Origin: Selaginella moellendorffii
Lineage: Eukaryota; Plantae; Lycopodiophyta
DNA length: 64,000 nt
NCBI RefSeq assembly: GCF_000143415.4
Contig: NW_003314306.1
Coordinates: 1,442,776-1,506,775 of the forward strand
Reading direction: 5' to 3'
Under the pieces are notes generated by a model. It did not search any database and was not told the origin of the DNA. It was given only the letters and a program-made list of their open reading frames with translations. The position numbers and the translations under genes were made by a program. Shown here in pieces: positions 10,766-59,845 of the stretch. Each line of letters begins with the position of its first letter. The first letter of the stretch is position 1.

Positions 10766-10786
10766 GCAAGTGATAATACTCTGGAT

Positions 10787-27839: not shown

Positions 27840-27940
27840 NNNNNNNNNNNNNNNNNNNNNNNNNNNNNNNNNNNNNNNNNNNNNNNNNNNNNNNNNNNNN
27901 NNNNNNNNNNNNNNNNNNNNNNNNNNNNNNNNNNNNNNNT
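27840..27940. other. Assembly gap (101 N)
   Basis: N run. Confidence 1.
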
Positions 27941-28489: not shown

Positions 28490-31262
28490 TAGTCAATAGC
28501 TCTGAGAATGCCTTGAAGAGGCTAGCTATGCATAATCAACACTCAGCCGAAACTAAAGTGAAGACCATGAGATGGACTCATATCGGTACATAACCTCCTC
28601 ATAGACAAAGCTATAGTACGGGTACAACCTTAAACAACTAAGTTGGACATCATCATCCTTAGCTAAGGCACAAGGCTACCAAAACTAAGTCAAGACCAGT
28701 GAGAGTTCACTACTCTCATAGAGTTTAACAAAATACAACATGTTAAACTCATAGAGTTTAACAAAACTTGCCACCAAGCATAATGCTATAGAAGAAAGCC
28801 ATAAGGGTCACCTTTCTTAAAAAAGTGCAACAGCTACTTTTTTACACTAACTCCAGACTCTATCTAACTCAATTGCATTAGCCTCAAAAGTTAGCATCCC
28901 TTTCAGGTTGCATCATATAAATTACATACTAAGGTGTAAGCTAATTGAAATCAACTCCAACCCTTGCACTAATTTGTACTGGCTTACAAAAACGTGGTTT
29001 TTAAACAAGTGATCAACAGATCAATCATTGGAAAAGTTTAAAAAAAATTGTGGAAAAATTTTCCATCATAGAGAAAGAATGACTCTCAATTCGGGAATGC
29101 AAACTTTCAAGACTCAACCAACTTCCTCCTACCTACAACTTTACATAGGTTCACCTCAACACAAATTCTCAAGACCCATAGTATACTTAAGCTTTGAACA
29201 TCATGCCCATATTTCTGATATCCAATATTGACATCCGCAAAAATGCAAAATGAACATCTAAGGCTTGATTATGAAAACCATATCTTTGAATATCCGCATT
29301 GCACTAACACTTTTCTTCAACCATTTTCAAGATCCAATATGAAGCCAAAACATTAATAAAAAAAATGACATGGAAAATCAAACTCTAAAGAAAATTCCTC
29401 ATCACTTGAAACAACAATACCACTTTCTCCAACACAAGTGTTAGCAATGTCAATGCTGCAACTATACACATTTTCTATTCAATAATTTACTCTAAATGCT
29501 AATGGCTCAACTGACAAGCTATAGCAAGTGAATGCTATAACATTTTCCAGGCAATTTCCCTAGGAAATAAAATACTAACTTAAGCTTAACATAATAGACC
29601 ACTATCGAGAATCCAGTCAAAGCTACTATAATGCTACTTTATGTAAGTAGACTAGCTTCACTATCAACCACTTTGGGGTTGATCATCATTTGACCAAGCA
29701 ACTTCATAAACACATTACTCATTATCACATGGATATGATATAAGTATCACAATGACTTGATCATCAATTGAGCAACACCACGAGTAATACCCATGTCATA
29801 ACTTCAAAGGTTTATATGAGTATCAAATACTAACCCAATTTGATAAAATGCAACAACACTTAACACCACTAACTTTTGTTCACAATACAGACAAGCTTAT
29901 ACCACTTTCTTTTTGACCAAACTCAAAATTAATTTAACACCAAGCTACTCAAAGAGCAATAGCAAGGTTCCCTGAAAAAGAATTGAGCATTGTAACCCAA
30001 GCCTTCCAATAGTAAGCCTTGACAAAAATAGTATAGCATTTCACCGCTATCCATCCCACAACTCACCATTTGTAAGACCATCATTTCCAATATGCATCAA
30101 GGCAGGGACTCTTCATTGCATAATGTGAACACGAGCAATGAATCACATCTCGTTGCAAATTATCTCTCCAAGAAGAGAAGATGATTTATGTGTTTGATCC
30201 TTCATCCCTGATAACTCTCTTTTCGGTCTTATCTTTTGACCAAACCTCAAACTTGCTTTCACATTGCCTTCAGTCCAATCCAACAAAAGTTTATGAGAGA
30301 GCACAACAATGATTACTTGAATCAATAGATTTATCCTTATAATCTTGATTGATCCACTTATAATCATGCCTAGGAAGGATCCACTAGTGCCGTGCTAAAT
30401 AGCTATGGACCAGCCTATTTGCCACTCATAGCAAACCCAAGGAAAGTTTACTTTCACCCATGGTACAAGGAACAATTTATAGAACCACTGATAGGTTAAC
30501 ATCAATCCTGCCAACTCAAAGAGTAACCTCGAGTTGCTAATGTGCCTCACTCACAAGCCCAAGTGCAAACTCATGTAAAATGGTACAACTTATTCCATCC
30601 TATGAGCCCAAGAGCAAACTCATACAATATGGTATAAAATGTAACCAAAATCCATACCTAAAGAACGATTGCGAAGCCTTTACACCCAAACGTGTACCCA
30701 CTCGGATCATCGTTTTCATCTCTGCGTATGAAATGAGACTAGTTGCCCAATCTCATTGGATAGTATTTGCCAAGACTCATCCATACCTTTATCCTATGGT
30801 GATTTACCATAGGATAACCATGAAGGGGAACTTAAACCCTCCATATGCCATATGTCATATGCTATATGTCACATGCTACATGTTCAAAAGACAGTGGTAT
30901 GGAATCGAGTTTTAGGGCCTTGTGCCATTGAATGAAGGAATGGTGCTAAACTCCCAAGCATGAAGCCAAGGAGCAATGGCATTGGAGCACAGAACAACTC
31001 TCAAACATATAGCCCAAGGAGTGAAATGACAGGAGCACAAAGCAACTTAGATCAATCCTAGAGCAACCAGCATCCTAATGCCAGGACTAGCATGCAAAAC
31101 GGAGCTAAACAGAGTCTAATGCTATTTCAACATACTGGTGGCCTAACATAAGGATATGAGCACTCCACTAGCTAATATGGAGTGGAACACCCAAGCCAAA
31201 TGCAAAACAAAGATAGGCACGCAAGCAGGAGCTAGACTATGCCTCAAGTTAGTCAGCCATGC
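28490..31262 (+). mobile_element. Heavily decayed LTR-retrotransposon pol region (RNase H/integrase), copy 1
   Basis: RPIVYLS (RNase H RPIAY(F/L)S-like); homologous to 31356-33868 (inverted), 38760-40610 and ~48080-49650. Confidence 0.6.
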
Positions 31263-31355
31263 CTGACTTACCCTTTACCCCTAATATAGATTTGGAACCT
31301 CCCATAGCCAATTATTGTTTTTGTGAATGTCACATTGTTTGGGACAATATGTAAC

Positions 31356-33868
31356 ATGGCTGACCAACCTAAGGCATAGTGTAGCTCCCACTTGCGTGCC
31401 TGTCTTTGTTCTGCGTCCGGCTTGGGTCTAAGCCCAAGTTCCATTCCATGCTAGCTGGTGAAGTACCCATATCCTCACGTTAAGCCATCGGTATGCCGAA
31501 ATAGCGCTAGACTCCGTTTGGCTCTGTTTTGCGTGCTGGTCTTGGCATTGGGATGCTGGATGCTCCAGGACTATTCCAAGTCGCTCCGGGCTCCTGTTCC
31601 TTTGCTCCTTGGGCTATATGCTCAGGAGTTGCTCCATGGACCGGTTCCATCACTCCTTGGCTTCACGCTTGGGAGTTTGGTACCATTCCTTCGTTCCTGA
31701 ACCTTGGGTACCACACCATGTTCCTTTGGACACGTGGCATCTGTCACATGGCACAAAGAGGGTTTAGGTTCTGCTTCGTGGTGTTATCCTATGGTAAATC
31801 ACCATAGGATAAAGGGTCAAAACCACGTGCACTACATTTGGTATCAAAGGATGAGTCTCAACGAATACTATTCAATGAGATTGGGCAACTAGTCTCATTG
31901 CATACGCAGAGATGAAAACGATGATCCGAGTGGGTACACGTTTGGGTGCTAAGACTTTGCAAATCATTCCTTGGGTATGAATTTGGTTACCATTTTGTAC
32001 CATATTATATGAGCTTGCTCTTGGGCTCATAAGAAGGATTGAGTTGTTTCAGTAGCACGAGTTTGCGCTTGGGCTCATGAGTGAGGCGCATTAGCAATTC
32101 AAGGTTGCACTTTGAGTTGGCAGGATTAATGTTAGCCTATTGGTGGTTCCATGAGTTGTTCCATGTACCATGGGTGAAAGTAAACTTTCCCTAGATTTGC
32201 TATGAGTGGCAAATAGGCTGGTCTGTAGCTATTTAGCACGGCACTAGTGGATCCTTCCTAGGCATGATTATAAGTGGATCAATCAAGATTAGTCTATAGG
32301 GATTAGTCTATTGGTTCAAGTAGTCATGGCTGTGCTCTCTCATAAACTTTTCTTCGATTGAACTAAAGGCAGTGCGAAAGCAAGCTTGAGGTTTGGTCAA
32401 AGATGAGACCGAAAGGAGAGTTATTGGGGACGAAGGATCAAATACGTAAATCATTTTCTCTTCTTGGAGAGATGGTCTGCAACGAGGTGTTAACTCATTG
32501 CTGGTGTTCACATCATGCAATCAAGAGTCCCTATCTTGATGCATGTTGGAGATGGTGGTTTTACAATGGTGAGTTGTGGGATGGATAGCGGTGAAGTGCT
32601 ATACCATTTTGTCTAGGCTTGCTATTAGAAGATTTGGGTTGCAATGCTCAATTCTTTTCCGGGGAACTTTGTTATTGCTTTTTGAGTAGCTTGGTTTTGG
32701 ATTAGTATTGGGTTTTGTCAGAAAGAGAGTGGCATGAGCTTGTCCGTATTGTGAACAAAAGTTAGTGGTATTGGGTGTTGTAAATCTCTATCGGTGAAGT
32801 GTGGCAATTGTGTTGCATTTTGTCGAATTGAGTTGGCGCTTGATACTTACATAAACCTTGTAGTAGTGACATGGGCATTGCTCATGGTGTTGCTTAATTG
32901 ATGATCAAGTCATTGTGATTTCTATATCGTATCCATGTGATAGTGAGCAATGTGTTTACGAAGTTGCTTGGGTAAATGATGATCAACCCTGAAGTGGTTG
33001 ATGGTGAAGCTAGTCTACTTGCACGTAGTAGCATTGTAGTAGCTTTAACTGAATTCTCAATGGTGGTCCATTATGCTAAACTTAAGTTGAAACCTTGTTT
33101 CCTTGAGTTTGCCCATTAGGTGTTGGAAAAGAGTTATAGCATTCACTTGCTATGACTTGTCAGTTGATCTATTAACACTTGGAGTAGATTGTTGGATGGA
33201 AAAGATGTGTAGTTGGGGCATTGACATCACTAGCATTTGTGTTAGTGGAAGTGGCATTGTTATTTCAAGTGATGAGGAATTTTCCTTGGACCTTGATTTT
33301 TCATGTCATTTTTCTTGTTAGTGCTTTGGCTTCACATTGGATCTTGAAGGTAATTGAAGAAGAGTGTTAGTGCAATGTGGATATCCAAAGATGTGGTTTT
33401 CGTGATCAAGCCTTGGATGTTCATTTTGCACTTTGCGGATGTCGGTGTTGGATATCAGTTAGATGGGCAAAGATGTTCGATGTTTAAGCATATTGTTGGA
33501 TCATGAGAATTCGTGTTAAGGTGAACCTATGTGAAATTGTTAGTAGGAGGAAGTTGGTTGAGTCTTGAAAGTTTGTATTCCTGGACTGAGAGTCATTCTT
33601 TCTCTAGGATGGAAATTTTCCACAAATTTTCTTAGACTTTTTCAATGGCTGATCTGTTGTTCACTTTGCCGAAAACCATTCCGTTTTCGTAAGCTAGTAG
33701 AAACTAGTGAAGGGGTTGGAGTTGACTTCAGTTAGCTTAGACCTTGGTAGGTAGTTTGTATGATACGGCCCGAAAGGGATGCTGACTTTTGGGGCTAAGG
33801 CAATTAAGTTGGATAGAGTCTAGAGTTGGTGAAGAAAAGTGGCTGTTGCACTTTTCTAGAAAGGTGAT
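31356..33868 (-). mobile_element. Decayed LTR-retrotransposon pol region, copy 2, inverted relative to copy 1
   Basis: e.g. 32236-32290 is the reverse complement of ~30345-30400; CLSPKSQHPFR..SYKLP is shared with ORF 39016. Confidence 0.65.
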
Positions 33869-34099: not shown

Positions 34100-34710
34100 G
34101 TGTCCGAGATGGAGTCCGAGACGGACCCTAGTTAGAGTCCGAGATAGACCCGAAGTGGAGTCCGATATGGAGTCCGAAGTGGAGTCCAAGATGGAGTCCG
34201 AGATGGACCCGAAGTGGAGTCCGAGATGGACCAAGACGGAGTCCGAGATGGACCCGAGATGGAGTCCGAGATGGAGTCCGAGATGGACCCGAGATGGAGT
34301 CCGAGATGGAGTCCGAGGTGGACCGAGACGGAGTTCGAGATGGACCCGAGATGGAGTCCGAGATGGAGTCTGAGGTGGACCGAGACGGAGTCCGAGATGG
34401 ACCTGAGATGGAGTCCGAGATGGACCGAGACGGAGTCCGAGGTGGAGTCCGAGATGGAGTCCGAGATGGACTGAGACGGAGCCCGAGATGGAGTCCGAGA
34501 TGGAGTCCGAGAAGGACCCGAGATGGAGTCCGAGGTCGAGACCGAGACCGGGACCGAGACCGGGACTGAGACCGAGACCGAGACTGAGACCGGGACCGAG
34601 ACCGGGACCGAGACCGAGACCGAGGCCAAGGCTGAGACCGAGCCCGAGCCCTCGTCTGAGCCCGAGCCCGAGTCCGAGTCCGAGTCCGAGTCCGAGTTCG
34701 AGTCTGAGAG
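34100..34710. repeat. Hexamer/dodecamer minisatellite (GAGATG GAGTCC, grading into GAGACC, GAGCCC, GAGTCC)
   Basis: Directly visible; explains the low-complexity ORFs in several frames. Confidence 0.95.
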
Positions 34711-35707
34711 GGTGAAAGCCCAAAGCGTTCGTCTCCTAGACCCTGGGGGGTTTGGTGAGCTCCAAAAGTATAGTAAGGGGGAGGACTGCAGTGGAGCCAG
34801 TTTGGCCAGGAAAGGCTAGTTTGGCCCAGGAAGGCCAGACCCAGTGTTGGGTGATGAACTGACCACTGGGAAGTCCAAGACTAGAGTGAATACGGACCGA
34901 CAAGCGTGGTAGCTTGGTGAAGTGTTCAAGAGCCGGCTCTAGTTCCCCTGGGAGATCGACTGGCCGATGCTCCCAATCCAAGTGTGGGTGGCACTACCTA
35001 CTTGGATACCAGGCGTGGCTCAATGGAACCTCGCTCTAAGCCCATGGCTAGAGCACCTAAAGGAGAAAGGCGGGGAGAGTACCCAGGTGGCTCGCGTAAG
35101 GCCACGGTGTTCCGAAATGTTGTCCCAAAGGCCTAGACTGTGGAAAGGAAGAGGAGCAGTCCTCTGGGGTAGTGACCAAGGACACAGTCGTGTGGTGAGG
35201 AAGTCCCAGAGGACCATGGGACTTAATGGTTGGGCCTGTGGGCCTCGATCCAGTGGCAGTGTTGGCAAACACGGCCAGGGGCAGAAAGGGACTTGGTAGG
35301 AACTGACAAAGGGACTTTGGGGAAGGCGATTCCCCAGGTCTGTGGGCATCCCAAGGATGCTAAGGAGTGGATCTAGGATGACCACTCGTGGACAGATGGC
35401 CCAGTCTTGGAGAGACGGGATGGTGATGCAAGTGGTATTGGACCACTAGTGCAGCAAAGGTGAATGGGCATGGCCTTAGTGTAACGGGCCGAGATGTCAG
35501 TGGTACCTTTGGGTGTTGGTCTTGGGACCGGACATGTGGAGCACTTGGACCAGGTGCAAGTGTTGAGTGGCATGGATGCCATTCTTGGGGCTAGCAAGTC
35601 CCAAGTCCTGAATTGGACTGATGGAGGTTGTGAATGAGACTCCTCCAAGTGGTCGGAGGTGTGGTTAAGTGACTAAAGATGAAAGGAAAATTTAGTCGCT
35701 TACAACT

Positions 35708-37407: not shown

Positions 37408-37507
37408 NNNNNNNNNNNNNNNNNNNNNNNNNNNNNNNNNNNNNNNNNNNNNNNNNNNNNNNNNNNNNNNNNNNNNNNNNNNNNNNNNNNNNNNNNNNNN
37501 NNNNNNN
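37408..37507. other. Assembly gap (100 N)
   Basis: N run. Confidence 1.
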
Positions 37508-37999: not shown

Positions 38000-40612
38000 T
38001 TCATTTGAACATCAATACAATTGCTAACTAGCAAATGCACGGATACCAATAACACAAAGTTACAACCTAAGTATCAACATTATTTGCATCGAAACTAATG
38101 AAACTTAATATTAATCTTACGGAGAGATATTTCACTTCACTCAAATCTTAACATCAACAATGTCAATGACAAGGCACCACTTCAATGCCATCAACACCAA
38201 AACAAAGCTAGAAGAAAGCAAAAGTGAATAGCCACTCAAAGCTTTCTAGCAACCAAACTAACTAAAGTCAAAGATACTATACTTAGTATCTGAGACCAGT
38301 TCTTCAACAATACTTAGCTACAGATAATGCATCATCAAGAAGTGAATCACCACATCCAAGACTCAATGAAATCCAATACCATAGACTAAACATAACCAAA
38401 TGATATCAACAGAGGTAGAGTCAACATACCAATATGGAAAAACCATATAAGTCTAACGACACGATCCTCCACAACACCATCCAGTAAGCAAGTCTATCAT
38501 TGCTAAATTATCATCCAATGAAGCAAGTATTAATAATCCTTTGACAAAGTCTACAAGTAATCACTAGTCACAAAGCAACTAATAATCACTTTTCAATTTA
38601 CCTTTCATAAGACCCAAACATTAAACTTATGTCATCGAGTTATATACTTGCCCAACATAAATGTAATACCCCAAGTACGAGATAAAAGTTCATGGACAAG
38701 CATAAACTAAATGACTACCCAAATCCAATTCAACCGCAATAAGCTCACCAATACATCTAATCAATAGCTCTGAGCATGCCTTGAAAAGGCTAGTTATGCA
38801 TAATCAACACTCAGTCAAAACTAAAGTGAAGACCATGAGATGGACTCATATTGGTACACAACCTTCTCATAGACAAAGCTATAGTATGGGTACTAACATT
38901 TCAACCTTAAACAACTAAGTTGGACATCATCATCCTCAGCGAAGTGCAAGGCTACCAAAACTAAGTCAAGATCAGTGAGAGCTCACTACTCTCATAGAGT
39001 CTAACAAAATATAAAGTGCAATCTGTCACTGAGCATAACGCTATAGAAGAAAGGCACAAGGGGTCACCTTTTTTAAAAAAAATGCAACGTGGCTACTTTT
39101 CTACACCAACTCCAGATTCTATCCCACTCAATTGCCTTAGCCCCAAAAGTCAACATCCTTTTCGAGTCGCATCATATAAACTACCTATTAAGATTTAAGC
39201 CAACCGAAGTCAACTCCAACCCTTTCACTAGTTTGTACTAGTTTACGAAAATGGAAAGGTTTTTGAGCAAAGTGATCAACAAATCAACCATCGGACCTCC
39301 TAGTTTTTCCATCCTAGAGAAAAAATTACCCTCAATCCAGGAATGCAAACTTTCAAGACTCAACCAACTTCCTCCTACTAACAACTTCACATAGTTTCAC
39401 CTCAACACAAATTCTCAAGACCCATAGTATGTTTAAGCTTCAAACATCATACCCATATTTTTTATATCCAAGACCAACATTTGCAAAAATGCAAAATGAA
39501 CATCCAAGGTTTAATCACAAAGACCATGTCTTCAGATACCCACATTGCACTAACACTCTTTTTTAACCACCTTCAAGATCCAACGTAAAGCCAAAACACT
39601 AACAAAAAAAATGACATGGAAAATCAAGATCTAGGGAAAATTCCTTATCACTCAAAATAACAACGTCATTTCCACTAACACAAGTGCTAACGATGTTAAT
39701 GTCTCAACTACACACCTTCTCCATCCGACAATATACTCCAAGTGCAACAGATTCACCAACAAGTCATAGAAAATTAATGCTACAACCCTTTCCAACACCT
39801 CAATGGGTAAACCCCTTAAGAACCAAGGTACTAACTTAAGTTTAGCATAATAGACCACAATTAAGAATCCAGTCAAGGCTACTTCATTGTTACTATATGT
39901 AAGTAGACTAGCTTCACCATCAACCACTTTGGGGTTGATCATCATCTAACCACGCAACTTCATAAACACATTACTTATTATCATATGAATATGATATAAA
40001 AATCACAATAACTTGATTATCAATCAAGCAACACCACGAATAATGCTAATGTCATTACTTTAAAGGTTTAATGTGAGTATCAAGTGTCAACTCAATTCGA
40101 TAAAATACAACATAAATACCACACTCCACCGATAAAGACTTACAACACCCAACACCACTAATTTTTGTTCATAACACGGATAAGTTCATGCCACTCTCTA
40201 TCTAACCAAACTCAAAACTAATCCAACACCAAGCTATTCAAGGAGTAATAGCAAGGTTCCCTGAAAAAGAATTGACCATTGCAACTTAAGTCTTCAATTG
40301 TAAATTTAGACAAAATGGTTTAACGCTTCACCATTATCCATCTCTTGACTCACCACTTGTAAGACCATTATAACCAATATGCATCAAAGTAGGGGCTCTT
40401 GATTGCATAATGTAAATATGAGCAATGAATTAACACCTTGTTGTAAATCATCTCTCCAAGAAGAAAAAATGATTTACGTGTTTGATCCTTCATTTTTAAT
40501 GGTTCTCTTTTCGGTCTCATCTTTAACTAAACCTCGAGTTTGCATTTGCATTGTTTTAGTCCAACCAAAGGAAAATTTATGAGAGAGCACAGCAATGACT
40601 ATTTGAACCAAT
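38000..40612 (+). mobile_element. Decayed LTR-retrotransposon pol region, copy 3
   Basis: 38760-40610 is colinear with 28490-30330 (e.g. aactaaagtgaagaccatgagatggactcat in both). Confidence 0.65.
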
Positions 40613-41545
40613 TTATATTACTAGTTTTTTATTATCTATTTTCTGTATATATTTTTGTAGTTTTTTTTGAATATTTATATATTTGTTCTAGGTTTTCTAT
40701 GTAAATTTTTTTTTCTGTTTTTAAAATTTTTTTCTAGTGATGTATATGACATTACTATTGTTTCTGTTTTTAAATGTTCTACTTTTTCTGATTTATAGTC
40801 ATTTGTATGCAATATTACCAATGAAGAAAGAAGGATATATACAAATAATAAAAGACAATACACATAATAAGAAACTAATAGATCATATATGGGTAAAAGA
40901 TATAATATATACAGAAGCAGGAATAGTGCATACTGGACAGATCATAATAAATTATATATCATATTAAAAAATATTTAAAAACAAAATAAAACCAAGCGTT
41001 GCTGCAACTCAACATGCAGCAATTTTATTTTCATTTGTAAAGGAACTCAAGTTACAAAGATAGTATATAAGTTATATATATGGATCTAAAGGGCTTTTAA
41101 AGATATTTTAAGTTAGTCAAACCCAATTCACAATTCACGGTAAAGCCTCACAACTATGGCCATAGCCTTCGCCTCTGCAAGGGTTATTATGGCCATGATT
41201 GCTTTGCATCTTTGCAAGCCTTGTGTCATGACAGTTACAAGTTCCATCCTTTTCTCCTTCATTGACATTTTGTTTTTCTCAGGGTGAGCTCCAGGATGCA
41301 TTTTGCTTTCTATTTCAAATTTATGGGTACATCGTGGTGTTAGGGATCTTGGTGAGAAGGAGAGCTTCATGGTTGAGTGTTGTTTCTCATGTGATTTGCA
41401 TAGCCAAAAGCTAAATTGATTTTCTAAAATAAAATAAAAGTTTTTAATAATCCTATATCTATGCAAAACCATTACAACATAACCCGAATCATAGGACTAC
41501 TACATGCTTAGTATTCTAAACGACCTGGCCACGATCTTGCTTTTC

Positions 41546-44287
41546 TCAGGCAACTTTTGGGCGTTTCTGTTGCAAATCGTCCGCAAACTTCTCTGTGGCA
41601 TCTATTGGGCGCTTCTGTCGCGGATCACCTGTAAACTTGAAATGTCACATCATGATATCATGGGAATAGCGTATCACGAATGTGTCTTACCAAGCTCCTT
41701 AATGTCAGAGACGTTTGGAATTGGAAGCTTATACGTGTCAGGAAGCAGCAAATGGAGCCATGATTTCGCTTCCTCTGATTGCTTTCCAGCCTCCACCTCC
41801 GTATCCGGCACCGCAATTGAAACTTCAGCTAGAAGTCTCTTCGTCTCAGCACCAAGGAAACGAAAGTTGCGTTCGAGACCATAAACTGTTATGTGCGCAA
41901 CAGGCTCCGTTTTCTTGCCATAAGCTTCGTCACCCTGCAAGTAAGACTTATGCATCTCATCCTTCTTCCATAACTTTGTTGGCACTGGCTCTTTATGTTT
42001 TGGTTCTTGGACATTGATGAGGACCGTCACCACTTTGATTTCGATTCCTGAGACTTGCATGAGCCTCGGCCTCAACACAGTCGTAGAAGCTTTGTTGAGC
42101 CACCCACACTTTCTACTGTTCTCAACCGAAACGAGCAGCGCAGTCATCCCCAAGGAAGTCCAGACCGGAATAACAATGTCATAACCTCGGACGTTATTGT
42201 TGGCTTTGTACATGATTGCACAGCCTCTCATGAACGCAGCTGCCAATATCTCGGGTGTCAACTGCCCCTGCTTAACCAGCATAAAACTGTTAAAAAAGAC
42301 GGCAGCGGATTCATCCAGGCCGCTGCATGCCTCGTCAACCTGTGCCTCCTCCGAGCCCAGCAATCGTCCGATATAATCCCGGAGAGGAATGCGGCGTAGG
42401 TAGTAGTCACCCTTGTACAAGCTCCAACAAGCTTGCAGCAAGATGAGCTTCACTATGAATTCCCCCCGATGTCCAGCATCCACATAGCCATTGTAGCAGC
42501 CGTTCAGGAACAGCCCTAGAGCAACTTCTAGAGGCTCGCCACTCTTGCGGTTGAGAATCCTAGCGGCCGCTTCACTCACAACGGGCTCCACGGGCTGACT
42601 GATATGCACTCTCGTACGATCGAGGGAGATGAACGTAAGGATACTCATGTGAGAAGCGACAAGAAGCTGGCTTTGCGCACTCCGCGGGCATATCTCCAGG
42701 CCCGCTGATGCTGAAAGCAAGGCCAACGCCTGGCTCTCAGCCATCTGTACCTTTCCGGTACAACCACAAACGTCCACAGCTTGCCCCTGAAAGTCCCCGT
42801 GCAGCACCCCAACCAGCTTGGCTTCCGCGAGATCGAGGAGGCTCCACACATTTGGATTGCTGTCAAGGCGGCTACTCCATAGGGGCCTTCCATACCTGAA
42901 CAACTGAGCTGGAGACAAATCCGTAGTCCGAGGAACAAGGTCCATATTCACCACCTGATGAATAGGCCTTAAAAGCCGCAAACCCAGGATATTAGCTTTC
43001 CTCGACTGGTCCTCGTGCCGTCGAGGCTGCAGATTACTGATACTCCCCATCGTATCAATGACAACTGCAAAGTATTTCTTGTGTGTGAAGAAAGCTCTCG
43101 CCACTCGCCTCATCTGGTAAAACGGCGATTGTGCCATACTGAAGGTGCTTTCCCCATTCGGTAAGAGACCGCGACCTTCGTCAAAAACAAAAAGCACCTG
43201 CACCTCCCCCTCTTCCGGCAGTACATCCTTCAAGTTGTCAAGCTCTCGTTGGAGTAGATTCTCGTTCCTGGCATCCGGTGACTCACTAATTTCCTCTACA
43301 GCTCTGCTGTTGATCAATTCAAGCCATTTCTTGTGCACGGCCTCCGCAATACTGGACGAATCCATCTCTGAATCCATCCACTGCACTGAGCTCATCTTCT
43401 CACCCTTCACCGTCTCATGGAGGACAAAAAGCCACGCCTTGAAGTATAGCGCCATCTCCAACTCGCTGTTCGTTCGGCTGAGCTGGTTGGCAAGCTCCCC
43501 AGTTCGAGGAGGACAGGCGCTACTGTTTGCTGCCGCCGTGCTGCAATAGCAAATATACACTCCCAGGCGCGACATCTGCATCACCCCGCGTGTTTTCCCC
43601 GTGCCAGAACCCTGTACTATGGAGGTATAGCAGCTGTAGTGCTCGTCTACACAATAGCCAGTGCTATAAGCCACAATAACAGAAGAATTCAAGACTTACT
43701 CTTTGAGCATTCGTTCCTCAACTTACACAGCTCCTTGTACAATATCTTATGGGCCTCTCCAACGTACTCCCTCCGTAACGATTTCATCGCCACTTTCGTA
43801 TTAATCTCGTGCCACAAACGATCACGATCAGGCCCAGTGTTCTCTGCACAGGCACAAGCAAGAGAATACTCGAGCACCAGACGAAAACACAGAACTTTCA
43901 CCTATCGGCTTCTGCATGAGGAGCCTTTCACATTGACGCAGCCACTCGCACGAAACACACTCCAACCTCTCCTTTATCCACTGTAGCAGCTTGGGGTCTC
44001 GTGTTTCTTTCTTTGCCACTAGGTCCATGATCTTGCTGCTGCGAGCCTCTACTGCACAGGAAATGCAAAAAGAACAGTAGCCTAAAGAAACAGCGAAAGA
44101 ACTTACAGTTGAACAGCTTATATATCCGGAATGCGAGACGAGGATTTCCTGGAAACAAGGGGTAAACCTCATCTACATCGGCCGTCCACAACCTGGAGGC
44201 CGAATAGCCTTGCCGCTGAAGGCACTCATAGTCAGGCCCGCAAAGATCCCGCAAGCGCTCCTCGCCGTCATCGCAGACGCTCTCCAT
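41546..44287 (-). CDS. Crinkler/RHS-type P-loop NTPase + restriction-endonuclease-fold protein, copy 1; exons 44287-44107, 44051-43902, 43843-43700, 43646-41691, 41628-41546 (837 aa)
   Basis: Four GT-AG introns of 53-62 nt give one open frame. Walker A YTSIVQGSGTGKT, Walker B VLFVFDE, YGRPLW, EPVVSEAAA, GHRGE, nuclease-like NN..GYDIVIP...LLVSVEN, terminal KRP...KRPKVA. Confidence 0.8.
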
Positions 44288-46000
44288 TAAACCCTAGAAC
44301 TTACCACCCAATCTTATGAGGTCTGTCAACATATAGTAATTTCAATTTACTCGTTTCACCATTAAAATTTTCGTCACGTCTAGTATCAGCTTTCCTCTAG
44401 TCCACATGGCCCTGTACAACATGAAAAGCCATGTAAAGTTTAACCCCAACCAAAAGAGTAAGAAATTAAAAAGAGGAGTTACATTTTGGTAAAAGATCAC
44501 AATAAATCTTTTGACTCTGTAGTGCTCAAAGTAGACTATTGTTGCTGTGCTGTTTCAGCATTTTACATTGCTCACAGCCTCCGGCACTGGCATAAGTTGT
44601 GAATTGTACCACTTCTGCAATTGCCAAAGCAGTGAAGTATATACTTCTAAGTGGTTGGAAATTATTTTCTACATCTTGTGTTTTGCTTGGCATCTGGATC
44701 TCAAGTAATGGGAATCACTGCAAGCGCCATTTAAGGATTCTGAAGCTTCTAATGTAGCAAGTATGTACAATAACAAAAACATCAGGTCAACATGCGGCAA
44801 TGGCAGAAGAATGTTTTCTGATTTTGCATGACATTTCTTCATCCTTGGATTTTTTCCCCTGCTGCGAATTTGTACACTCTCGAGTCTCGAACACCCTCAC
44901 ACTCACATGGGCCATTTTTTAGCAAAACTACTTATGCTAAGACGAATTTTCGAGACAAGAATTGCAGTTGCAATTTTCGAGTTAGTTTCGGGCGAGGTGG
45001 CAGGGCAGCGGGGCGGCGGTGGCGGTGGCGGTGGCGGCAGAGCGGCGCGGCCGGGGGCGGGCCAGTGTGGTTGGGCGGTGGCAGCACGAGCATCCACATT
45101 GATGAAACGTTCTCGCAGTCAAGGCTCCACCTGTGATGATCGTCACTTAGCAAACGAATGAATGGAAAAATATCTCGAAGCTTACCATTGAGTTGACACT
45201 TGACGAGAGTGAAACCTCTTGAATGGCTTCACCTCCTTTGGACAATGTAAGTGGATCCTGCCTGCCTGCTCGCTTAGCTCCATCCCAGTGACACTGCGGC
45301 CCGGTGTGGTCATCAAGCTGAGGAAAAACCATAGTTTTGATAAACAAACAAAACTGGAGTTCCAAATCCCTCTCTCCATCGCAGCCAGAGCACTGAAAAA
45401 ACAAACACCAAGTGTAAAGAGCTTGCATATCTCAAGAGAAAACTTAACAGTGATACTTACAGTGAGCCAGCGTAAGAGAAGGAACTTCCAGGGAGAGAAG
45501 CCATGCTAAGTCGTGCATACTCACGGATTACATAAACCTTGAATAGATGAGTTAAGAGTGAACATGCAAGAAACACTATACAAAATTACTTACTGGAAGT
45601 GCCGTGACCAGGAGCCTTGAATAATAGCGCAGCTGCTTGACAACCTCCTCTTTATTCTTACCTGGAAGGAGTCTAATAGTACTTGTCAGGGTATTGTCAA
45701 AACTCCTTCCAAGGTAAATGCCACACTCGTCCCCCGTCGAAGCACCTGGAAAACATACACACTTTAGTTTGGATGATCAGAGAATCATAGCATACCTCAA
45801 TATAATTCTTGTAGTTGCATTTTCTGTCTGGGTTCGTTATAGGAGCGTGAGGATTGTGAATGCATAGCTCGTTATCAATCACATGTACTTGTGTCTTTCA
45901 ACCTGTTTGAACCAGAAGTTTGCTAGTGAGCAAAGGAAAGTACATATCTTACAGGAAGTTCGTCCAGTGGCCATCTCTCGGTCAATCATCTAGTGGACCT

Positions 46001-46063
46001 GCAGCTCACATCCACTATGACACCTCCAAAAGCTGGTTGAAGATACTCCAAAGCCATTTTAAG
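46001..46063 (-). pseudogene. Isolated exon fragment resembling a UbiE-like SAM methyltransferase
   Basis: cag|LKMALEYLQPAFGGVIVDVSC resembles the ..MA.EY....GG.lVDVSCGSG motif-I region of plant plastid methyltransferases, but breaks before GSG. Confidence 0.4.
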
Positions 46064-46296
46064 CTGAAACACATTAGCAGCGTCTGGATTCCTCTGCTAA
46101 ACAACTGGTAATGTTATGCTTTTCTTCGTTTCCTAGCTTTGGTCCTTAGTTTGCATTCCAGACAAGTACAGGCGCAACTTGGATCATCCCATAGATTTCT
46201 TGTTCTTCCGGAGTTCACGGAACGATGATTTCGTAAGGAGAATATCGTTGAATCTTATTGTCAGGAGCAAATAGGATAGGTTTCTCTAGGGCGAGA

Positions 46297-48079: not shown

Positions 48080-49650
48080 AACTAATAGAGAGTTAGACAA
48101 TGCCTTAAGTTTGTTAGCTATGCCTAACTTACATACTATCTTTACTATATATTTTTAACCTCTCATAGAAGTGAATCACTATGTCCAAGATTTAATGCAT
48201 TTAATATGGACTAAATGCAATTAGGCAATACTAAAAGAGATGGAATTGATATACTAATATGGAAAAACTAAACCCAACAACATAATCCTCCTCAATACCA
48301 TCTGATAAATAAGTCCATCATTACCAAATCATCATTAAGCTAAGTGTCAATAGTACTTGATTAAGTCTACAAGCAATCACTATTTTTAAAACAACCAACA
48401 ATCACTCTTGAATTTGCCTTCACAAGACTCAAATACCAAACTCACATCATTAAATCATATATTTATCCAATAAAAAGGTAGCATTCTAAGTATAATACAT
48501 TGGAACATAGACAAATACAAACAAAATAACTACTCAAATTTAATCAAATAGTAATAAACTCACCTATACATCTAATTAAATTAGTGTTAAGCACAACTCA
48601 AGAGGCTAGCAATAAATGATCAATACCCAATTAAAACTAAAGTGAAGACTATAAGATGGACTTCCATAGGTACACAACCTCTTAATAAACAAAGCGACAA
48701 TACAAATACTTACAACGCCATCATAAATAACTCAATTGAACATCACCATCCTTAGCCAAAGCACAAGGCCACCAAGACTAAATTAAGATGAGTGAGAGTT
48801 CACTACTTGTAAGCAACCAAAGAGATTGACTCAAAAAATAATTTATAAAAGTTTAAATATAGAAGAAAAGTGCATATAAATAAAAATATACCCTTTTTTT
48901 CAATCGGTTAAAGATCTTAGGACACTTGGGGTTAAACATCTTTGGTTTTGAGTAGTATTGGGATGAGTGACCTCCCAAGAAGTCAAAATTCATAAGCTTA
49001 CACTACTCTTTTAAAATTTAACTAAATGTAAAGTGCAACTTGCCACCAAACATAATATTATAAAAAAAGGTACAAAGGTTACATTTTGAGAAAAGTGAAA
49101 TAGCCACTTTTCTACTTAAACTCTAGATTTTATCCAACTCAATTATGTTAGCCCCAAAATTTAGCATTCTTTCAAGCTGCATTATATAAATTACCTACTA
49201 ACGTCAAAGTCAACTAAAGTTAACCCCTTCACTAGTTTGCAATGGCTTTTGAAAATAAAATGGTTTTTGGGTAAAATGATTAACAAATAAACCATTAAGT
49301 AAATTTATGAAAATAAAATTATTGTAGAGAAAGAAAGACTCTTAATCTTTCTTTCAATACAAATTCTTAAGACTCAATTAACTTCCTCCTGTTTACAATT
49401 TCTCATTTCACCTCAATATAATTCTAATGACCCAATAGAATCCCAATGACCCAATAGAATGCATGTCTACTGATATTTACAAATGCTAATAAATACATAA
49501 AACCTAATCACAAAGCATATCTTTGGATATTTAAATCTCATTAACACTCTTCTTCAACCATTTTTAAGACCAAATGTCATTAACATGTCTAATGACATGA
49601 AAAATCAAGTTCTAGGGAAAAATCTTAACAATACCACTTCCATTAACGCC
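48080..49650 (+). mobile_element. Decayed LTR-retrotransposon pol region, copy 4 (most AT-rich), interrupted by a solo LTR
   Basis: Colinear with 38250-39680. Confidence 0.6.
48808..49002 (+). mobile_element. 195-bp solo LTR with a 5S rRNA-derived segment (Cassandra-like)
   Basis: Ends TGTAAGC...GCTTACA; flanking CTACT/CTACT 5-bp TSD; absent from the paralogous pol copies (empty site gagttcactactctc at ~28703-28717); contains gttaaacatctttggttttgagtagtattgggatgagtgacctcccaagaagtc. Confidence 0.85.
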
Positions 49651-52371: not shown

Positions 52372-53243
52372 ATATACTTATAATACAAAGGTAAAGATCA
52401 TAGAACTTATAAATAGGTATATGCATTTAAAGATAAAGTCTCATGCTTAATCTTTAGCAATTGGTTCATGAGATAAACCTTAAAAATATTTCTACACTAA
52501 ATATACTAATCCTTCTATTGTGTAAATCATTTGAAGCAATTACTTATCCACTTGTACTACAGTCCTATGGTATATATCTTATTCAAATGTATATTATATT
52601 TTAAGTAGTCATTAATTAATAGGAATTGAAATTGTGCTATTTCCTCTGATACTACATGTAATACACTTTATCTCTCTCCCTTAAGCTAATTGGAAAAAAA
52701 TCAATTGCTTAATAAGGGGGCCCTTAGTGAATATTTTATAATATCCCAAGGATGTATGGTAGTATATCTAAATCTAATTCTATGATTATATACACTATAA
52801 AAGTATATGGACTGAAATAGTAAAATACTAATCATTGAAATTTATAGAATTTTTATGTAAGATATAGAGTAATTGACTATTTTATATTATAATATGGATC
52901 TAAAGGGCTTTTTAAGATATTTTAACTGGAGGAGTTAGTCAAACCCTAGATACAAATCTCACAATTCATAGTAAGGCCTCACAACCATGGCCATAGCCTC
53001 CTCTGTGTTGCTTCTCATCTGTGATTTACATAGCCAAAAAGCTAAATTGATTTTCTAAAATAAAATAAAAGTTTTTAATATTCACAATAATCCAAAACCA
53101 TTACAACATAACCCTCAAGAGAAGCAAGCCAAACTCATCTTGACAGACTGAAACACTAGTAAAATTTCACAAATTCAAAGTGGAAGCTTAAATACTACTT
53201 AAAGGAATCATAGCACTACTACATGCTTAGTATTCTGCTTTTC

Positions 53244-56024
53244 TCAGGCAACTTTTGGGCGTTTCTGTTGCAAATCGTCCGCAAACTTTTCTGTGGCATC
53301 TATTGGGCGCTTCTGTCGCGGATCACCTGTAAACTTGAAATGTCGCATCATGATATCATGGGAATAGCGTATCACGAATGTGTCTTACCAAGCTCCTTAA
53401 TGTCAGAGACGTTTGGAATTGGAAGCTTATACGTGTCAGGAAGCAGCAAATGGAGCCATGATTTCGCTTCCTCTGATTGCTTTCCAGCCTCCACCTCCGT
53501 ATCCAGCACCGCAATTGAAAGTTCAGCTAGAAGTCTCTTCGCCTCAGCACCAAGGAAACGAAAGTTGCGTTCGAGACCATAAACTGTTATGTGCGCAACA
53601 GGCTCCGTCTCCTGTCCATAAGCGTCGTCATCCTGCGAGTAAGACTTATGCAGCTCATTCTCCTTCCATAACTTTGTTGGCACTGGCTCTTTATGTTTTG
53701 GTTCTTGGACATTGATGAGGACCGTCACCACTTTGATTTCGATTCCTGAGACTTGCATGAGCCTCGGCCTCAACGCAGTCGTAGAAGCTTTGTTGAGCCA
53801 CCCACACTTTTTACTGTTTTTGACCGAAACGAGCAGCGCAGTCATCCCCCTGGAAGTCCAGACCGGAATAACAATGTCATAACCTCGGACTTTATTGTTG
53901 GCTTTGTACATGATTGCACAGCCTCTCATGAACGCAGCTGCCAAGATCTCGGGTGTCAACTGCCCCTGCTTAACCAGCATAAAACTGTTAAAAAAGACGG
54001 CAGCGGATTCATCCAGGCCGCTGCATGCCTCGTCAACCTGTGCCTCCTCCCAGCCCAGCAATCGTCCGATATAATCCCGGAGAGGAATGCGGCGTAGGTA
54101 GTAGTCACCCTTGTACAAGCTCCAACAAGCTTGCAGCAAGATGAGCTTCACTATGAATTCCCCCCGAGGTCCAGCATCCACATAGCCATCGTAGCAGCCG
54201 TTCAGGAACAGCCCTAGAGCAACTTCTAGAGGCTCGCCACTCTTGCGGTTGAGAATCCTAGCGGCCGCTTCACTCACAACGGGCTCCACGGGCTGACTGA
54301 TATGCACTCTCGTACGATCGAGGGAGATGAACGTAAGGATACTCATGTGAGAAGCGACAAGAAGCTGGCTTTGCGCACTCCGCGGGCATATCTCCAGGCC
54401 CGCTGATGCTGAAAGCAAGGCCAACGCTTGGCTCTCAGCCATCTGTACCTTTCCGGTAGAACCACAAACGTCCACAGCTTGCCCCTGAAAGTCCCCGTGC
54501 AGCACCCCAACCAGCTTGGCTTCCGCGAGATCGAGGAGGCTCCACACATTTGGATTGCTGTCAAGGCGGCTACTCCATAGGGGCCTTCCATACCTGAACA
54601 ACTGAGCTGGAGACAAATCCGTAGTCCGAGGAACAAGGTCCATATTCACCACCTGATGAATAGGCCTTAAAAGCCGCAAACCCAGGATATTAGCTTTCCT
54701 CGACTGGTCCTCGTGCCGTCCCAGGATATTAGCTTTCCTCGACTGGTCCTCGTGCCGTCGAGGCTGCAGATTACTGATACTCCCCATCGTATCCATGACA
54801 ACTGCAAAGTATTTCTTGTGTGTGAAGAAAGCTCTCGCCACTCGCCTCATCTGGTAAAACGGCGATTGTACCATACTGAAGGTGCTTTCCCCATTCGGTA
54901 AGAGACCGCGACCTTCATCAAAAACAAAAAGCACCTGCACCTCCCCCTCTTCCGGCAGTACATCCTTCAAGTTTTCAAGCTCTCGTTGGAGTAGATTCTC
55001 GTTCCTGGCATCCGGTGACTCACTAATTTCCTCTACAGCTCTGCTGTTGATCAATTCAAGCCATTTCTTGTGCACGGCCTCCGCAATACTGGACGAATCC
55101 ATCTGGGAATCCATCCACTGCACTGAGCTCATCTTCTCACCCTTCACCGTCTCATGGAGGACAAAAAGCCACGCCTTGAAGTATAGCGCCATCTCCAACT
55201 CGCTGTTCGTTCGGCTGAGCTGGTTGGCAAGCTCCCCAGTTCGAGGAGGACAGGCGCTACTGTTTGCTGCCGCCGTGCTGCAATAGCAAATATACACTCC
55301 CAGGCGCGACATCTGCATCACCCCGCGTGTTTTCCCCGTGCCAGAACCCTGTACTATGGAGGTATAGCAGCTGTAGTGCTGGTCTACACAATAGCCAGTG
55401 CTATAGGCCACAATAACAGAAGAATTCAAGACTTACTCTTTGAGCATTCGTTCCTCAACTTACACAGCTCCTTGTACAATATCTTATGAGCCCCCCCAAT
55501 GTACTCCCTCCGTAACGATTTCATCGCCACTTTCATATTACTCTCGTGCCACAAACGATCACGATCAGGCCCAGTGTTCTCTGCACAGGCACAAGCAAAA
55601 GAATACTCGAGCACCAGACGAAAACACAGAACTTTCACCTATCGGCTTCTGCATGAGGAGCCTTTCACATTGACGCAGCCACTCGCACGAAACATACTCC
55701 AACCTCTCCTTTATCCACTGTAGCAGCTTGAGGTCTCGTGTTTCTTTCTTTGCCACTAGTTCGCTTATCGTGTCGGAGCGAGCCGCTACTGCACAGGAAA
55801 TGCAAAAAGAACAGTAGCCTAAAGAAACAGCGAAAGAACTTACAGTTGAACAGCGCAAAGATTTGGCATGCGAGATCAGGATTTCCTGGAAACAAGGCGA
55901 AAACCTCACATACATCGGCCGTCCACAACCTGGAGGCCGAATAGCCTTGCCGCTGAAGGCGCTCATAGTCAGGCCCGCAAAGATCCCGCAAGCGCTCCTC
56001 GCCGTCATCGCAGACGCTCTCCAT
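53244..56024 (-). CDS. Crinkler/RHS-type NTPase + nuclease protein, copy 2; exons 56024-55844, 55788-55639, 55580-55437, 55383-53389, 53326-53244 (850 aa)
   Basis: Same exon structure as copy 1; in-frame 39-bp duplication; nuclease motif GYDIVIP...VSVKN. Confidence 0.8.
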
Positions 56025-56744
56025 TAAACCCTAGAACTTACCACCCAATCTTATGGGGTCTGTCAACATATAGTAATTTCAATTTACTCGTTTCACCATT
56101 AAAATTTTCGTCACATCTAGTATCAGCTTTCCTCTGAGTCCGCATGGCCCTGCACAACATGAAACGCCATGTAAAGTTGAAGCCAACCAAAAGAGTAAGA
56201 AGAAAGAAAGAGGAGTTACATTTTGGTAAAAGGTCACAATATGTACTGCTCGAAGTAGACTATTGTTGCTGTGCTGTTTCAGCATTTTGCATTGCTCACA
56301 GCCTCCGGCACTGGCATAAGTTGTGAATTGTACCACTTCTGCAATTGCCAAAGCAGTGAAGTATATACTTCTAAGTGGCTGGAAATTATTTTCTACATCT
56401 TGTGTTTTGCTTGGCATCTGGATCTCGAGTAATGGGAATCACTGCAAGCGCCATTTAAGGATTCTGAAGCTTCTAATGTAGCAAGTATGTACAATAACAA
56501 AAACATCAGGTCAACATGCGGCAATGGCAGAAGAATGTTTTCTGATTTTGCATGACATTTCTTCATCCTTGGATTTTTTCCCCTATGAGTTTGCTGTTCT
56601 TCTTGTAATAGGACAAGCATTGTGAGGATTAGCAAAGCAAAACTTTCAATACTAGTAGCATAGAAGTCATATTTAAATTCTTGCTGCTTGCTAGACTGTA
56701 GTAAAGATTGATTCTTATTTATCCAACAATTTATTCTAAGTGCT

Positions 56745-58166
56745 AGGGGGCTGTGAATTTCTGGTAAGTAGCAAATTTTCTTATATCTCCGTGTGAAGAG
56801 CTGTGTTTATTTATTCCAGGAGAAAAAAAGCCAGGTACTTCAAGGATGGATTGTACTACCACGGTATCATGGAACTTACTCTTTGATATGATGCCTCTAA
56901 TCTACAAAGTTATGCAGGTGGTATGGGTCGACTCATTCGAGCAGTGAGGGCGCTTGCAAGGCTTACACGAAAGGTTCTTCTTCCAGCCAAGCAAGGTTAT
57001 CTGAATCTGTTGTTTTTCTTCACAGGAGCGCTTCATCGAGTCTCTTGTTAATGCGTCCACACTACAACAACAAAGAGAGCTCTGGTATAATGCATCCGCA
57101 TGCACCAAAAGTAACTGTCTCACTTTGATTGCCTGAGCAGGTTCGCTTGTGTAGGATCACAAGCTGGGATTTTTGCGAAGATGGTATCTTTCTTCGTAAC
57201 CAACAGATTCACGATGTCGTTTTGTGCTGGAGTGTGCAAAGGCCAGCTTCGTCTGCTACGCAAGGAGGGCAACTTATACAAGTAAGACATCTTTCTCAGG
57301 CGTGATTCTCATTGAACCACTTGTCCTTTGTTTTCACAGCTACATTGTCCGCTGTCTAAATTCAACAGCTGCGTATTCACATCTCCGGGACAGCAACTAC
57401 TTTTACCGCTGCTGCCTGACTGGGAAGTTTTCATCCAACTGCTGTCCTCGTTTCCTGGAAAAGGAAAACTTCCACAAACTCAAGGTACTACACACGAACG
57501 ACTTGCCATGAATTTCAAGACTTTTGTGCTGTGTTGCAGACAAGGCTTGCTGCGGAGGAGTGCCTGTTGATCCGGACAGCCACATTTGTGGAGGAGCTTT
57601 CGAAGCGAATGTACACCAAGGTACGTACCTGGAACTTCTTGTTTGGTGAAATGCTGTGTATTGCTTGGTGCTCAGGTGATTTTGATGGACCACGTCGACT
57701 GGCTAGAACAAAGCGACGTCGATGTCCTTTGCAAAGCGCTGCAAGCACATGTAATTGTAAGTAGTTGCGAATTTCCACACCCTCGATCACCTCACACTTG
57801 TGATTTCCACTTGGTTTTTAGCCTGGAGGCCGCGTGATCTGGCGCAGTGCGTCGCGACCTCCAAGCTACGCCAATTGCATCGAGAAATCTGGATTCAAAG
57901 GTTCGAAGTTCTTTCCTTTTTGGAACTGTTTTTGGAAGCTAAAAACCAATTGTTTCTGCGCAGTGATCCAAGTAGCAACGAGCAAGGCTTACATGGACAG
58001 AGTAAACATGTACGCGAGCTTCTTCGTGGCTGTTCGCGTGGGTGGATTGGCATCCATCAAAATTCCAATCCATCCATCATCGAGGCTTCACGATCACAAG
58101 CTGGATCCTAAAGAACCCGAGTCGCCGGACTCGGTGCTACCAGCGCCATTGTGGATCGAGATTTGA
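56745..58166 (+). pseudogene. 5'-truncated BTA1 copy (3' part of the BtaA domain only)
   Basis: Starts mid-exon; 9-bp in-frame deletion near 57155 and a W>S change; no start codon or BtaB half. Confidence 0.85.
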
Positions 58167-59177: not shown

Positions 59178-59845
59178 TTGACTTCACCTAATTGCTTTCC
59201 AGCCTCCACCTATGTATCTAGCATTGCAATTGAAAATTAAACTAGAAGTTTCTTCGTCTTAGCACCAAGGAAACAAAAGTTGGGTTCAAAACCATAAATT
59301 GTTTATTGTGCACTGTCTTCTTGCCAAAGCTTCGTCATCCTGCCAGTAAGACTTATGCAGCTCATCCTTCCTTTGTTGGCACTAGCTCTTTGGTTCTTGG
59401 ACACTGATGAGGACTGTCACCACTTTGATTTGGATTGCTATGACTTGCACGTTATTGTTGGCTTTGTACATGATTACAACGCAGCTGCTCAACTCCCCCT
59501 GCTTAACTAGAATTTAAACTGTTAATAGAGACCGCAGCGGATTCATCCAGACCGCTGCATGCCTCGTCAACCTGTGCCTCCCCCAGCCCAGCAATCGTCA
59601 GAGATAATCCCGGGGAGGAATGCGGCATAGGTAGTAGTCACCCTTGTACAAGCTCCAACAAGCTGCAGGAGGACGAGCTTCACTATGAATTCCCCCTATG
59701 CCCAGCATCCACATAGCCATTGTAGCAGCCGTTCAGGAACAGCCCTAGAGCAACTTCTAGAGGTTCGGCCACAAGAATACTCATGTGAGAAGCGACAAGA
59801 AGTGGCTTTGAGCACTCCGCGGGCATATCTCCAGGCCCGCTGATG
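59178..59845 (-). pseudogene. Second deleted relic of the NTPase-nuclease gene
   Basis: Duplicate of 10120-10765. Confidence 0.85.

What the first reader, a model, noticed from the sequence alone, without database searches (positions are those of the whole stretch)
41546..41691. Hidden last exon supplies a bipartite NLS to the NTPase-nuclease
The ORF track ends at ELGKTHS*. However, G|GTAAGA at 41691/41690 and TTTACAG| at 41629 define a 62-nt intron, giving GDPRQKRPIDATEKFADDLQQKRPKVA*. This has KR - 14 aa - KRPKV, a bipartite-NLS-like pattern at the extreme C-terminus. The peptide is identical in copy 2 (53326-53244). Retaining the intron would give an NLS-less isoform, a possible switch for nuclear access of a nuclease (inference).
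Basis: partly seen in the sequence, partly recalled or inferred. Interest (0 to 1): 0.75.

Follow-up and report, generated by a model that had tools for sequence, protein, structure and literature searches.

The report
Spliced last exon with duplicated NLS
This small last exon of a spikemoss ATPase-nuclease-like gene is real, was spliced in every transcript set that covered it, is already in public gene models, and likely adds a nuclear-import tag built from a 48-base duplication; no intron-retention switch was seen at this intron.

Summary
The intron and exon are real but not hidden, and no switch was seen at this intron. The window is Selaginella moellendorffii. Public model SELMODRAFT_420356 equals copy 2 and already ends in the 27-aa tail; 12 of 14 cluster models carry it and none ends in ELGKTHS. 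In 8 RNA-like runs from 8 studies, 7 cover the junction; all 7 skip the 62-nt intron and no contig covers it, although the same data show intron 1 read through.

New here: the acceptor plus last exon is a 48-nt tandem duplication (35/48 identical; shuffle maximum 28). The KR-14-KRPK spacing is therefore the 16-codon repeat period: two copies of a QKRP motif. The tail is predicted disordered and meets the monopartite K(K/R)X(K/R) rule, but not the classical 10-12 linker rule. It likely imports a STAND-like ATPase + restriction-type nuclease (CR/Crinkler-like architecture) into the nucleus; this is untested. The better leads are 5': intron-1 read-through, a fast-changing header, and a K/E change in the nuclease motif (copy 1 has E). 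Low interest.

The parts
41546..41628 (-). Last coding exon (exon 5) of copy 1: 27-aa tail plus stop
   Evidence: joined to exon 4 in 4 of 4 runs
41629..41690 (-). Intron 4, 62 nt, GT..AG, phase 1; in-frame TGA at 41676-41674 if retained
41588..41635 (-). 48-nt repeat unit 1: holds the acceptor (TTTACAG) and the upstream QKRPI motif; no stop
   Evidence: 35/48 identity to unit 2
41540..41587 (-). 48-nt repeat unit 2: acceptor-equivalent reads GCGG (no AG), holds QKRPKV and the stop codon
41609..41614 (-). Upstream KR (candidate importin-alpha minor-site cluster)
   Evidence: role inferred
41555..41566 (-). KRPK, the only K(K/R)X(K/R) match in the 850-aa public model of copy 2; candidate monopartite NLS core
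41452..41545 (-). 3' UTR; contigs of three runs end at 41451-41453 (weak hint of the 3' end)
   Evidence: table 8
41691..43646 (-). Exon 4: STAND-like P-loop NTPase (Walker A 43611-43591), helical/winged-helix region, restriction-type nuclease-like domain (D at 42180-42178; S-V-E at 42129-42121 where relatives have Q/S-x-K)
43700..43843 (-). Exon 3
   Evidence: joints; model
43902..44051 (-). Exon 2 (weak partial BRCT match below the Pfam cut-off)
44052..44106 (-). Intron 1, 55 nt (not a multiple of 3), often read through in contigs
44107..44287 (-). Exon 1 coding part: small helical header (SAM/HhH-like look-alikes only, TM < 0.5)
53244..53326 (-). Last coding exon of copy 2, same peptide
53327..53388 (-). 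Intron 4 of copy 2, 62 nt
53244..56024 (-). Copy 2 gene; the five-exon model translates letter for letter to public SELMODRAFT_420356 (850 aa); nuclease motif S-V-K at 53827-53819

Best explanation
This is an ordinary terminal coding exon, spliced in every transcript set that covered it, and its 27-residue predicted-disordered tail likely acts as a classical nuclear-import signal for a Selaginella ATPase plus restriction-type nuclease-like protein. The acceptor and exon are a 48-nt tandem repeat (shown). The likely history (inferred): a short acceptor-GD-x-x-QKRPK-VA-stop unit was doubled; the first copy kept the acceptor and lost the stop and one lysine, the second lost the acceptor and kept KRPK and the stop. 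KRPK would bind the importin-alpha major site and the left-over upstream KR may add minor-site binding. All full-length spliced protein would carry the tag, so any control of this protein is more likely exerted at the 5' end (intron 1) or on the enzyme than at this intron.
For: Splicing: 7 of 7 covering runs from 7 studies skip the intron, of 8 laid; depth arithmetic leaves no room for an intron-covering contig. Internal control: intron 1 is read through in X5 and X13 (31 or more letters each side) and in X11 and X12 (just under that), and intron 2 is covered by pieces in X4 and X10. Annotation: 12 of 14 cluster models end in the tail, 2 stop inside the nuclease domain, 0 of 164 stored proteins end in GKTHS. 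Repeat: TRF period 48 at 53238-53336; 35/48 and 36/48 identity, 0 of 2000 shuffles reach it, maximum 28; a second in-frame tandem duplication (39 nt, 54681-54759) lies in copy 2. NLS: KRPK is the only K(K/R)X(K/R) match in 850 aa; residues 828-850 have pLDDT < 50; the 4 kinds of substitution among the 12 tails leave both basic clusters intact; a 14-residue linker is within the 6-19 range reported in PMC3084728 (passages read). Relatives: the motif is in the last 60 aa of 15 of 109 long relatives versus 58 of 1311 interior windows (p = 2e-4); 4 of 5 fern or fern-like relatives carry KKPR ahead of the Walker A instead.
Against: No localisation or importin-binding test was possible. The tail fails the classical KR-X10-12 bipartite rule and the five class patterns I recalled from Kosugi et al.. 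The monopartite core appears in 16% of shuffles of this tail. 94 of 109 long relatives have no such motif in their last 60 aa, the closest Selaginella paralog (P0015/P0164, 39% identity) has none anywhere, and termini are enriched for basic low-complexity sequence anyway. The runs are contigs, their RNA status is the tool's guess, no DNA control was laid, and contigs may come from any of several 93-97% identical paralogs. The direction of the duplication history has no outgroup with a single unit.
Confidence: 0.72

Rival explanations
1. One reading: regulated retention of intron 4 makes an NLS-less isoform ending ELGKTHS that is kept out of the nucleus.
For: The sequence allows it: retention gives a stop 15 nt into the intron and a short 3' UTR of about 220 nt. 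Intron retention is 42% of alternative-splicing events in this species and favours short introns (PMC5310277, passages read). The polypyrimidine tract is weak, 10 of 20.
Against: 0 of 7 covering runs show the intron, including two of the deepest (X4 depth 97, X15 depth 255), while intron 1 read-through is visible. No public isoform ends this way. Intron 3 has a similarly weak tract (11 of 20) and is spliced in every run that shows a joint there.
Confidence: 0.05
2. The tail is a true bipartite NLS in which both clusters are needed: the duplication created a stronger signal and was kept for that reason.
For: KR-X14-KRPK fits the extended 6-19 linker range (PMC3084728, passages); both KR pairs are unchanged between the repeat units while 6 or 7 of the other 14 codon positions changed amino acid; unchanged in 12 of 12 tails.
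Against: The spacing is fully explained by the repeat period; Q and P beside the KR are equally unchanged; the copies are too close (about 97% identical) to show selection; fails the 10-12 rule. This is a sub-case of the best explanation, not its opposite.
Confidence: 0.3
3. The tail is a neutral appendage: a basic-looking product of a small duplication with no import role.
For: Relatives end at the core without any tail (P0015, P0016); weak motif statistics (16% of shuffles); overall pN and pS between the copies are about equal (0.027 and 0.025), as for relaxed selection; copy 1 has E for the conserved nuclease K.
Against: The exon is spliced in all covering runs, tail variation spares the basic residues, the tail has 0 non-synonymous changes between copies, and fern-like relatives carry a similar motif at another place.
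Confidence: 0.2

Closest known systems
Public gene models SELMODRAFT_420356 / LOC9656271 and cluster mates (Selaginella moellendorffii)
   Same: Copy 2 spliced as proposed is identical to the 850-aa model; 12 of 14 models in the cluster have this last exon.
   Different: The models are named 'uncharacterized'; the names shown mention no NLS, no 48-nt repeat and no domain architecture.
CR (Crinkler-RHS-type) NTPase + HTH + REase proteins (Zhang et al. 2016, seen only through the review PMC5289972, passages and section 11)
   Same: Small N-terminal header, P-loop NTPase, helical region and a D...(Q/S)xK nuclease-like domain; nearest atlas neighbours are fungal and oomycete proteins, one cluster with Crinkler Pfam in 19% of members. 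The review says CR proteins occur in land plants and that CRNs are nuclear, many with an NLS.
   Different: No ubiquitin-like LxLFLAK header and no Crinkler Pfam hit; an endogenous plant gene, not a secreted effector as far as tested; S in place of Q in the motif, and E for K in copy 1.
Classical importin-alpha NLS (monopartite K(K/R)X(K/R); bipartite KR-X10-12-basic cluster; PMC3084728, passages)
   Same: KRPK core, upstream KR, exposed disordered terminus.
   Different: Linker is 14 and equals a tandem-repeat period; no binding data.
Archaeal STAND-type ATPases (PDB 2qen, 2fna) and NLR/Avs NB domains
   Same: Model residues 127-534 align at Z 12.4 (rmsd 4.8, 290 aligned) and Z 10.6.
   Different: 9-12% identity; no repeat sensor domain; a nuclease-like domain follows.

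Membership tests
U2-type spliceosomal intron | GT..AG ends and removal from transcripts | tested here: met
   joint skipping 62 nt in 7 of 7 covering runs
Regulated retained intron | Both spliced and retained mature forms occur | tested here: not met
   0 of 7 covering runs show a retained form; contigs only, so rare forms can be missed
Classical monopartite NLS | K(K/R)X(K/R) core | tested here: met
   KRPK at residues 845-848, single match in the protein
Classical monopartite NLS | Exposed, outside a folded domain | tested here: met
   pLDDT < 50 for 828-850; few alignment rows cover the tail, which also lowers pLDDT
Classical NLS (either type) | Binds importin-alpha and is sufficient for import | not testable with these tools
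   needs a reporter or binding assay
Classical bipartite NLS | Linker of 10-12 residues | tested here: not met
   linker is 14
Extended bipartite NLS | KR, linker of 6-19, then a basic cluster with 3 of 5 basic residues | tested here: met
   range from PMC3084728 passages
CR NTPase+REase proteins | P-loop NTPase domain | tested here: met
   GSGTGKT and VFDE motifs; G175, K176, D314, E315 at 90% or more in 98 sequences; Z 12.4 to 2qen
CR NTPase+REase proteins | C-terminal restriction-endonuclease-fold domain with D...(E/Q)xK | tested here: inconclusive
   D in 86, Q in 70, K in 74 of 90 aligned rows; by my recall about 35 of 50 structural rows are restriction-type nucleases or hold one, but Z is only 2.4-3.7 and the top three rows are unrelated; copy 2 has SxK, copy 1 SxE
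CR NTPase+REase proteins | Assignment to one of the CR-NTPase/CR-REase families of Zhang et al. 2016 | not testable with these tools
   paper and its profiles not held
Oomycete/fungal Crinkler (CRN) effector | Ubiquitin-like header with LxLFLAK (PF20147) | tested here: not met
   no Pfam hit at E <= 1, no motif; header predicted all-helical

The most novel reading that the evidence does not exclude
A fast-evolving family of nuclear DNA-attacking conflict proteins in a lycophyte gained its import signal by doubling a 48-nt acceptor-plus-NLS unit, and is switched not at the last intron but at the first: retaining the 55-nt intron 1 turns the main frame into a 119-aa header-only peptide and leaves only a header-less or alternatively headed NTPase-nuclease from downstream starts, while K-type (active) and E-type (decoy or inactive) paralogs are co-expressed.
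Probability: 0.15. Interest if true: 0.6.

Novelty: already known. Interest (0 to 1): 0.2.

Why it matters
As found, little: it completes a gene model that databases already hold and adds a likely NLS. The small added value is a clear case of a signal peptide exon whose 'bipartite' spacing comes from a tandem duplication, a caution for motif-based NLS calls. If the 5' reading held up, it would give a testable splice control and an active/inactive paralog pair in a little-studied plant branch of CR-like NTPase-nucleases.

Tried and rejected
No whole genome is held for this window, so paralogous loci could not be read as DNA. No listed run is on record as RNA; the runs are treated as transcripts because they skip four GT..AG introns. 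X12 has no cover beyond 53467, which says nothing either way. Identity of the two copies' tails was rejected as evidence of selection (intron 1/62 different, exon 1/83). Pfam gave no family for the long ORFs or P0001, and only three sub-threshold AAA_16 hits in 52 of the 149 relatives scanned. No PDB sequence relative; Foldseek gave nothing at E <= 0.001 for either model. The header had no usable feature hit; its structural look-alikes are all under TM 0.5; the BRCT match is below cut-off. A search with residues 780-850 among shorter proteins found only a degenerate Selaginella paralog without this tail; the repeat unit occurs nowhere else in the window. A motif just ahead of the Walker A is not general in the family (5 of 75). 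A basic-cluster fusion with the upstream gene, as in public model P0004, is not bridged here: no contig depth at 44388-44849 (absence only). Literature: no paper with both 'SELMODRAFT' and 'Crinkler', none with all four terms on NLS exons by tandem duplication; two searches listed nothing on this gene by title or abstract start. Zhang et al. 2016 and its supplements could not be read and may already classify this family. Earlier scan findings: none. No complex was predicted, as no importin-alpha sequence was held.

Full report
Observation. The donor (G|GTAAGA, 41691/41690), acceptor (TTTACAG|, 41629), 62-nt length and spliced 27-aa tail are as described. Copy 2 has the same intron (53388-53327, one base different) and exon (53326-53244, one synonymous change). 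The linker between KR and KRPKV is 14 residues. Identity between the copies carries no weight, because intron and exon are equally similar.

Identity of the gene. The long ORF's only hit in the word-indexed search was SELMODRAFT_420356 of Selaginella moellendorffii. A five-exon model of copy 2 translates to that 850-aa protein letter for letter, tail included. Of the 14 models in its cluster, 12 end in the tail, 2 end early inside the nuclease domain, and none ends in ELGKTHS; several of the 14 are isoforms or repeat models of the same loci. So the exon is hidden only from an ORF track.

Splicing test. I laid 8 of the 20 holder runs, one per study. They are assembled contigs and RNA only by the tool's guess, but they skip four GT..AG introns. 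On copy 1, 4 of 4 runs join across the 62 nt. On copy 2, X11, X13 and X15 do and X12 has no cover. Mean depth in the bins over the intron (15.3, 58, 22, 7.63; 6.8/6.07; 6.69/5.96; 161.7) equals the exon-only expectation, so no laid contig covers it. The method can see read-through: intron 1 (55 nt) lies inside continuous contigs in X5 and X13, the latter a contig that also skips introns 2 and 3, and with shorter flanks in X11 and X12; it is seen spliced only in X1 (depth 4) and X11 (depth 9). Intron 2 is covered by minor pieces in X4 and X10. Limits: contigs drop rare variants, no DNA run was laid, and contigs may come from any close paralog. Intron retention is common in this species (42% of events; PMC5310277, passages), so trace retention is likely, but nothing points to a regulated isoform at intron 4.

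Origin of the motif. Tandem Repeats Finder reports a 48-nt period over the copy-2 exon. In register, 41635-41588 and 41587-41540 match at 35 of 48 bases (36 in copy 2); 2000 shuffles reached at most 28. Unit 1 contains the acceptor and reads G-D-P-R-Q-K-R-P-I-D-A-T-E-K. Unit 2 has GCGG where unit 1 has ACAG and reads D-D-L-Q-Q-K-R-P-K-V-A-stop-E-K. KR plus 14 residues is 16 codons, the repeat period. The bipartite look is thus two copies of one motif. That a single acceptor-NLS-stop unit was doubled is inference; no single-unit relative was found. Copy 2 has another in-frame tandem duplication of 39 nt, so such events occur in this gene.

Is it an NLS? KRPK is the only K(K/R)X(K/R) match in the 850-aa protein; the classical 10-12 linker rule and the stricter class patterns (recalled) are not met. 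Linkers of 6-19 are reported (PMC3084728, passages). The tail is predicted disordered beyond a core ending near residue 820. Substitutions among the 12 tails spare the basic residues. Among 109 relatives of 600 aa or more out of 149 hits, 15 have the core motif in their last 60 residues against 58 of 1311 interior windows (p = 2e-4), a modest enrichment with an imperfect control. The nearest relatives lack the tail: a 39%-identical Selaginella paralog has no such motif, and 4 of 5 Adiantum or Adiantum-like proteins have KKPR ahead of the Walker A instead (two of these are unnamed and fern-like only by similarity). This fits a movable import tag but does not prove one. I put about 0.75 on NLS function.

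The carrier protein. The model (mean pLDDT 82.6) has a small helical header, a P-loop domain matching archaeal STAND-type ATPases (2qen, Z 12.4, rmsd 4.8, 290 aligned) and a C-terminal alpha/beta domain. That domain has D661 in 86, Q678 in 70 and K680 in 74 of 90 aligned rows. Its structural neighbours are mostly restriction-type nucleases by my recall of their names (about 35 of 50 rows), but with weak scores (Z 2.4-3.7). This works like the NTPase+HTH+REase class of CR proteins described in the review PMC5289972 (passages and section 11 read), which notes their presence in land plants and nuclear localisation of CRNs. It is not a canonical Crinkler: no LxLFLAK header and no Pfam hit. The primary paper could not be read. 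Copy 2 has S-V-K, copy 1 has S-V-E; the cluster holds 6 K, 5 E and 3 models without the motif; X11, X12 and X13 contigs carry the E form, X15 the K form. Copy 1 may therefore be catalytically dead (inference).

Where the real leads are. Retaining intron 1 shifts the frame: the first ATG then gives a 119-aa peptide in both copies, while a second frame runs through the intron into exon 2, from an ATG 16 nt downstream in copy 2 and from later ATGs in copy 1. Three public isoforms start in that frame. Exons 1-2 differ between the copies at 26 of 331 bases against 2 of 166 in introns 1-3 (p = 0.0015); header pN 0.085 against pS 0.04 is not significant (p = 0.23). These are leads; incomplete splicing of pre-mRNA and gene conversion between paralogs are not excluded.

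Verdict. Observation confirmed; exon already annotated; NLS likely but untested and better read as a duplicated monopartite motif; retention switch at this intron not supported. Interest 0.2.

Noticed in passing
window 44052-44106 and 55789-55843 (-): Intron 1 (55 nt) is read through in contigs of X5, X13, X11, X12 and seen spliced only in X1 and X11; retention gives a 119-aa header-only ORF and an alternative frame that public isoforms P0003, P0007 and P0013 use.
   Followed up: partly
window 42121-42123 vs 53819-53821 (-): Nuclease-motif lysine (K in 74 of 90 aligned rows) is E in copy 1 and K in copy 2; both forms occur in public models (5 E, 6 K) and in transcript contigs.
   Followed up: partly
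window 43902-44287 vs 55639-56024 (-): Header exons diverge about 8% between copies (23 non-synonymous, 3 synonymous changes in residues 1-115) while the introns between them are nearly identical.
   Followed up: partly
window 54681-54759: Perfect 39-nt in-frame tandem duplication in copy 2, absent from copy 1 and skipped in contigs of three of four runs.
   Followed up: partly
window 10102-11050 and 59165-60125: Internally deleted, degenerate pieces of the same gene (75-95% identity, ending before the last intron) joined to a piece of its upstream region, inside a 5.8-kb duplicated segment (7655-13451 / 56742-62551).
   Followed up: no
window 28808-33867, 38338-40612, 48167-49624: A 5-kb imperfect palindrome (about 80% identity) with related copies on both sides of copy 1; possibly transposon ends or a dispersed repeat.
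   Followed up: no
window 44977-46100 (-): A separate spliced transcript lies upstream of copy 1; public model P0004 fuses its counterpart to the NTPase gene, but no contig bridges 44388-44849 here.
   Followed up: partly
window 356-1330, 2951-5362, 5831-6523 (+): ORFs with a P21-Rho-binding (CRIB) domain, ARM-like repeats and a SAM-dependent methyltransferase domain.
   Followed up: no
window 34102-34712: GC-rich 12/57-nt tandem array inside several overlapping open frames with no Pfam match.
   Followed up: no
window 13452-13553, 27840-27939, 37408-37507: Three assembly gaps of about 100 N.
   Followed up: no
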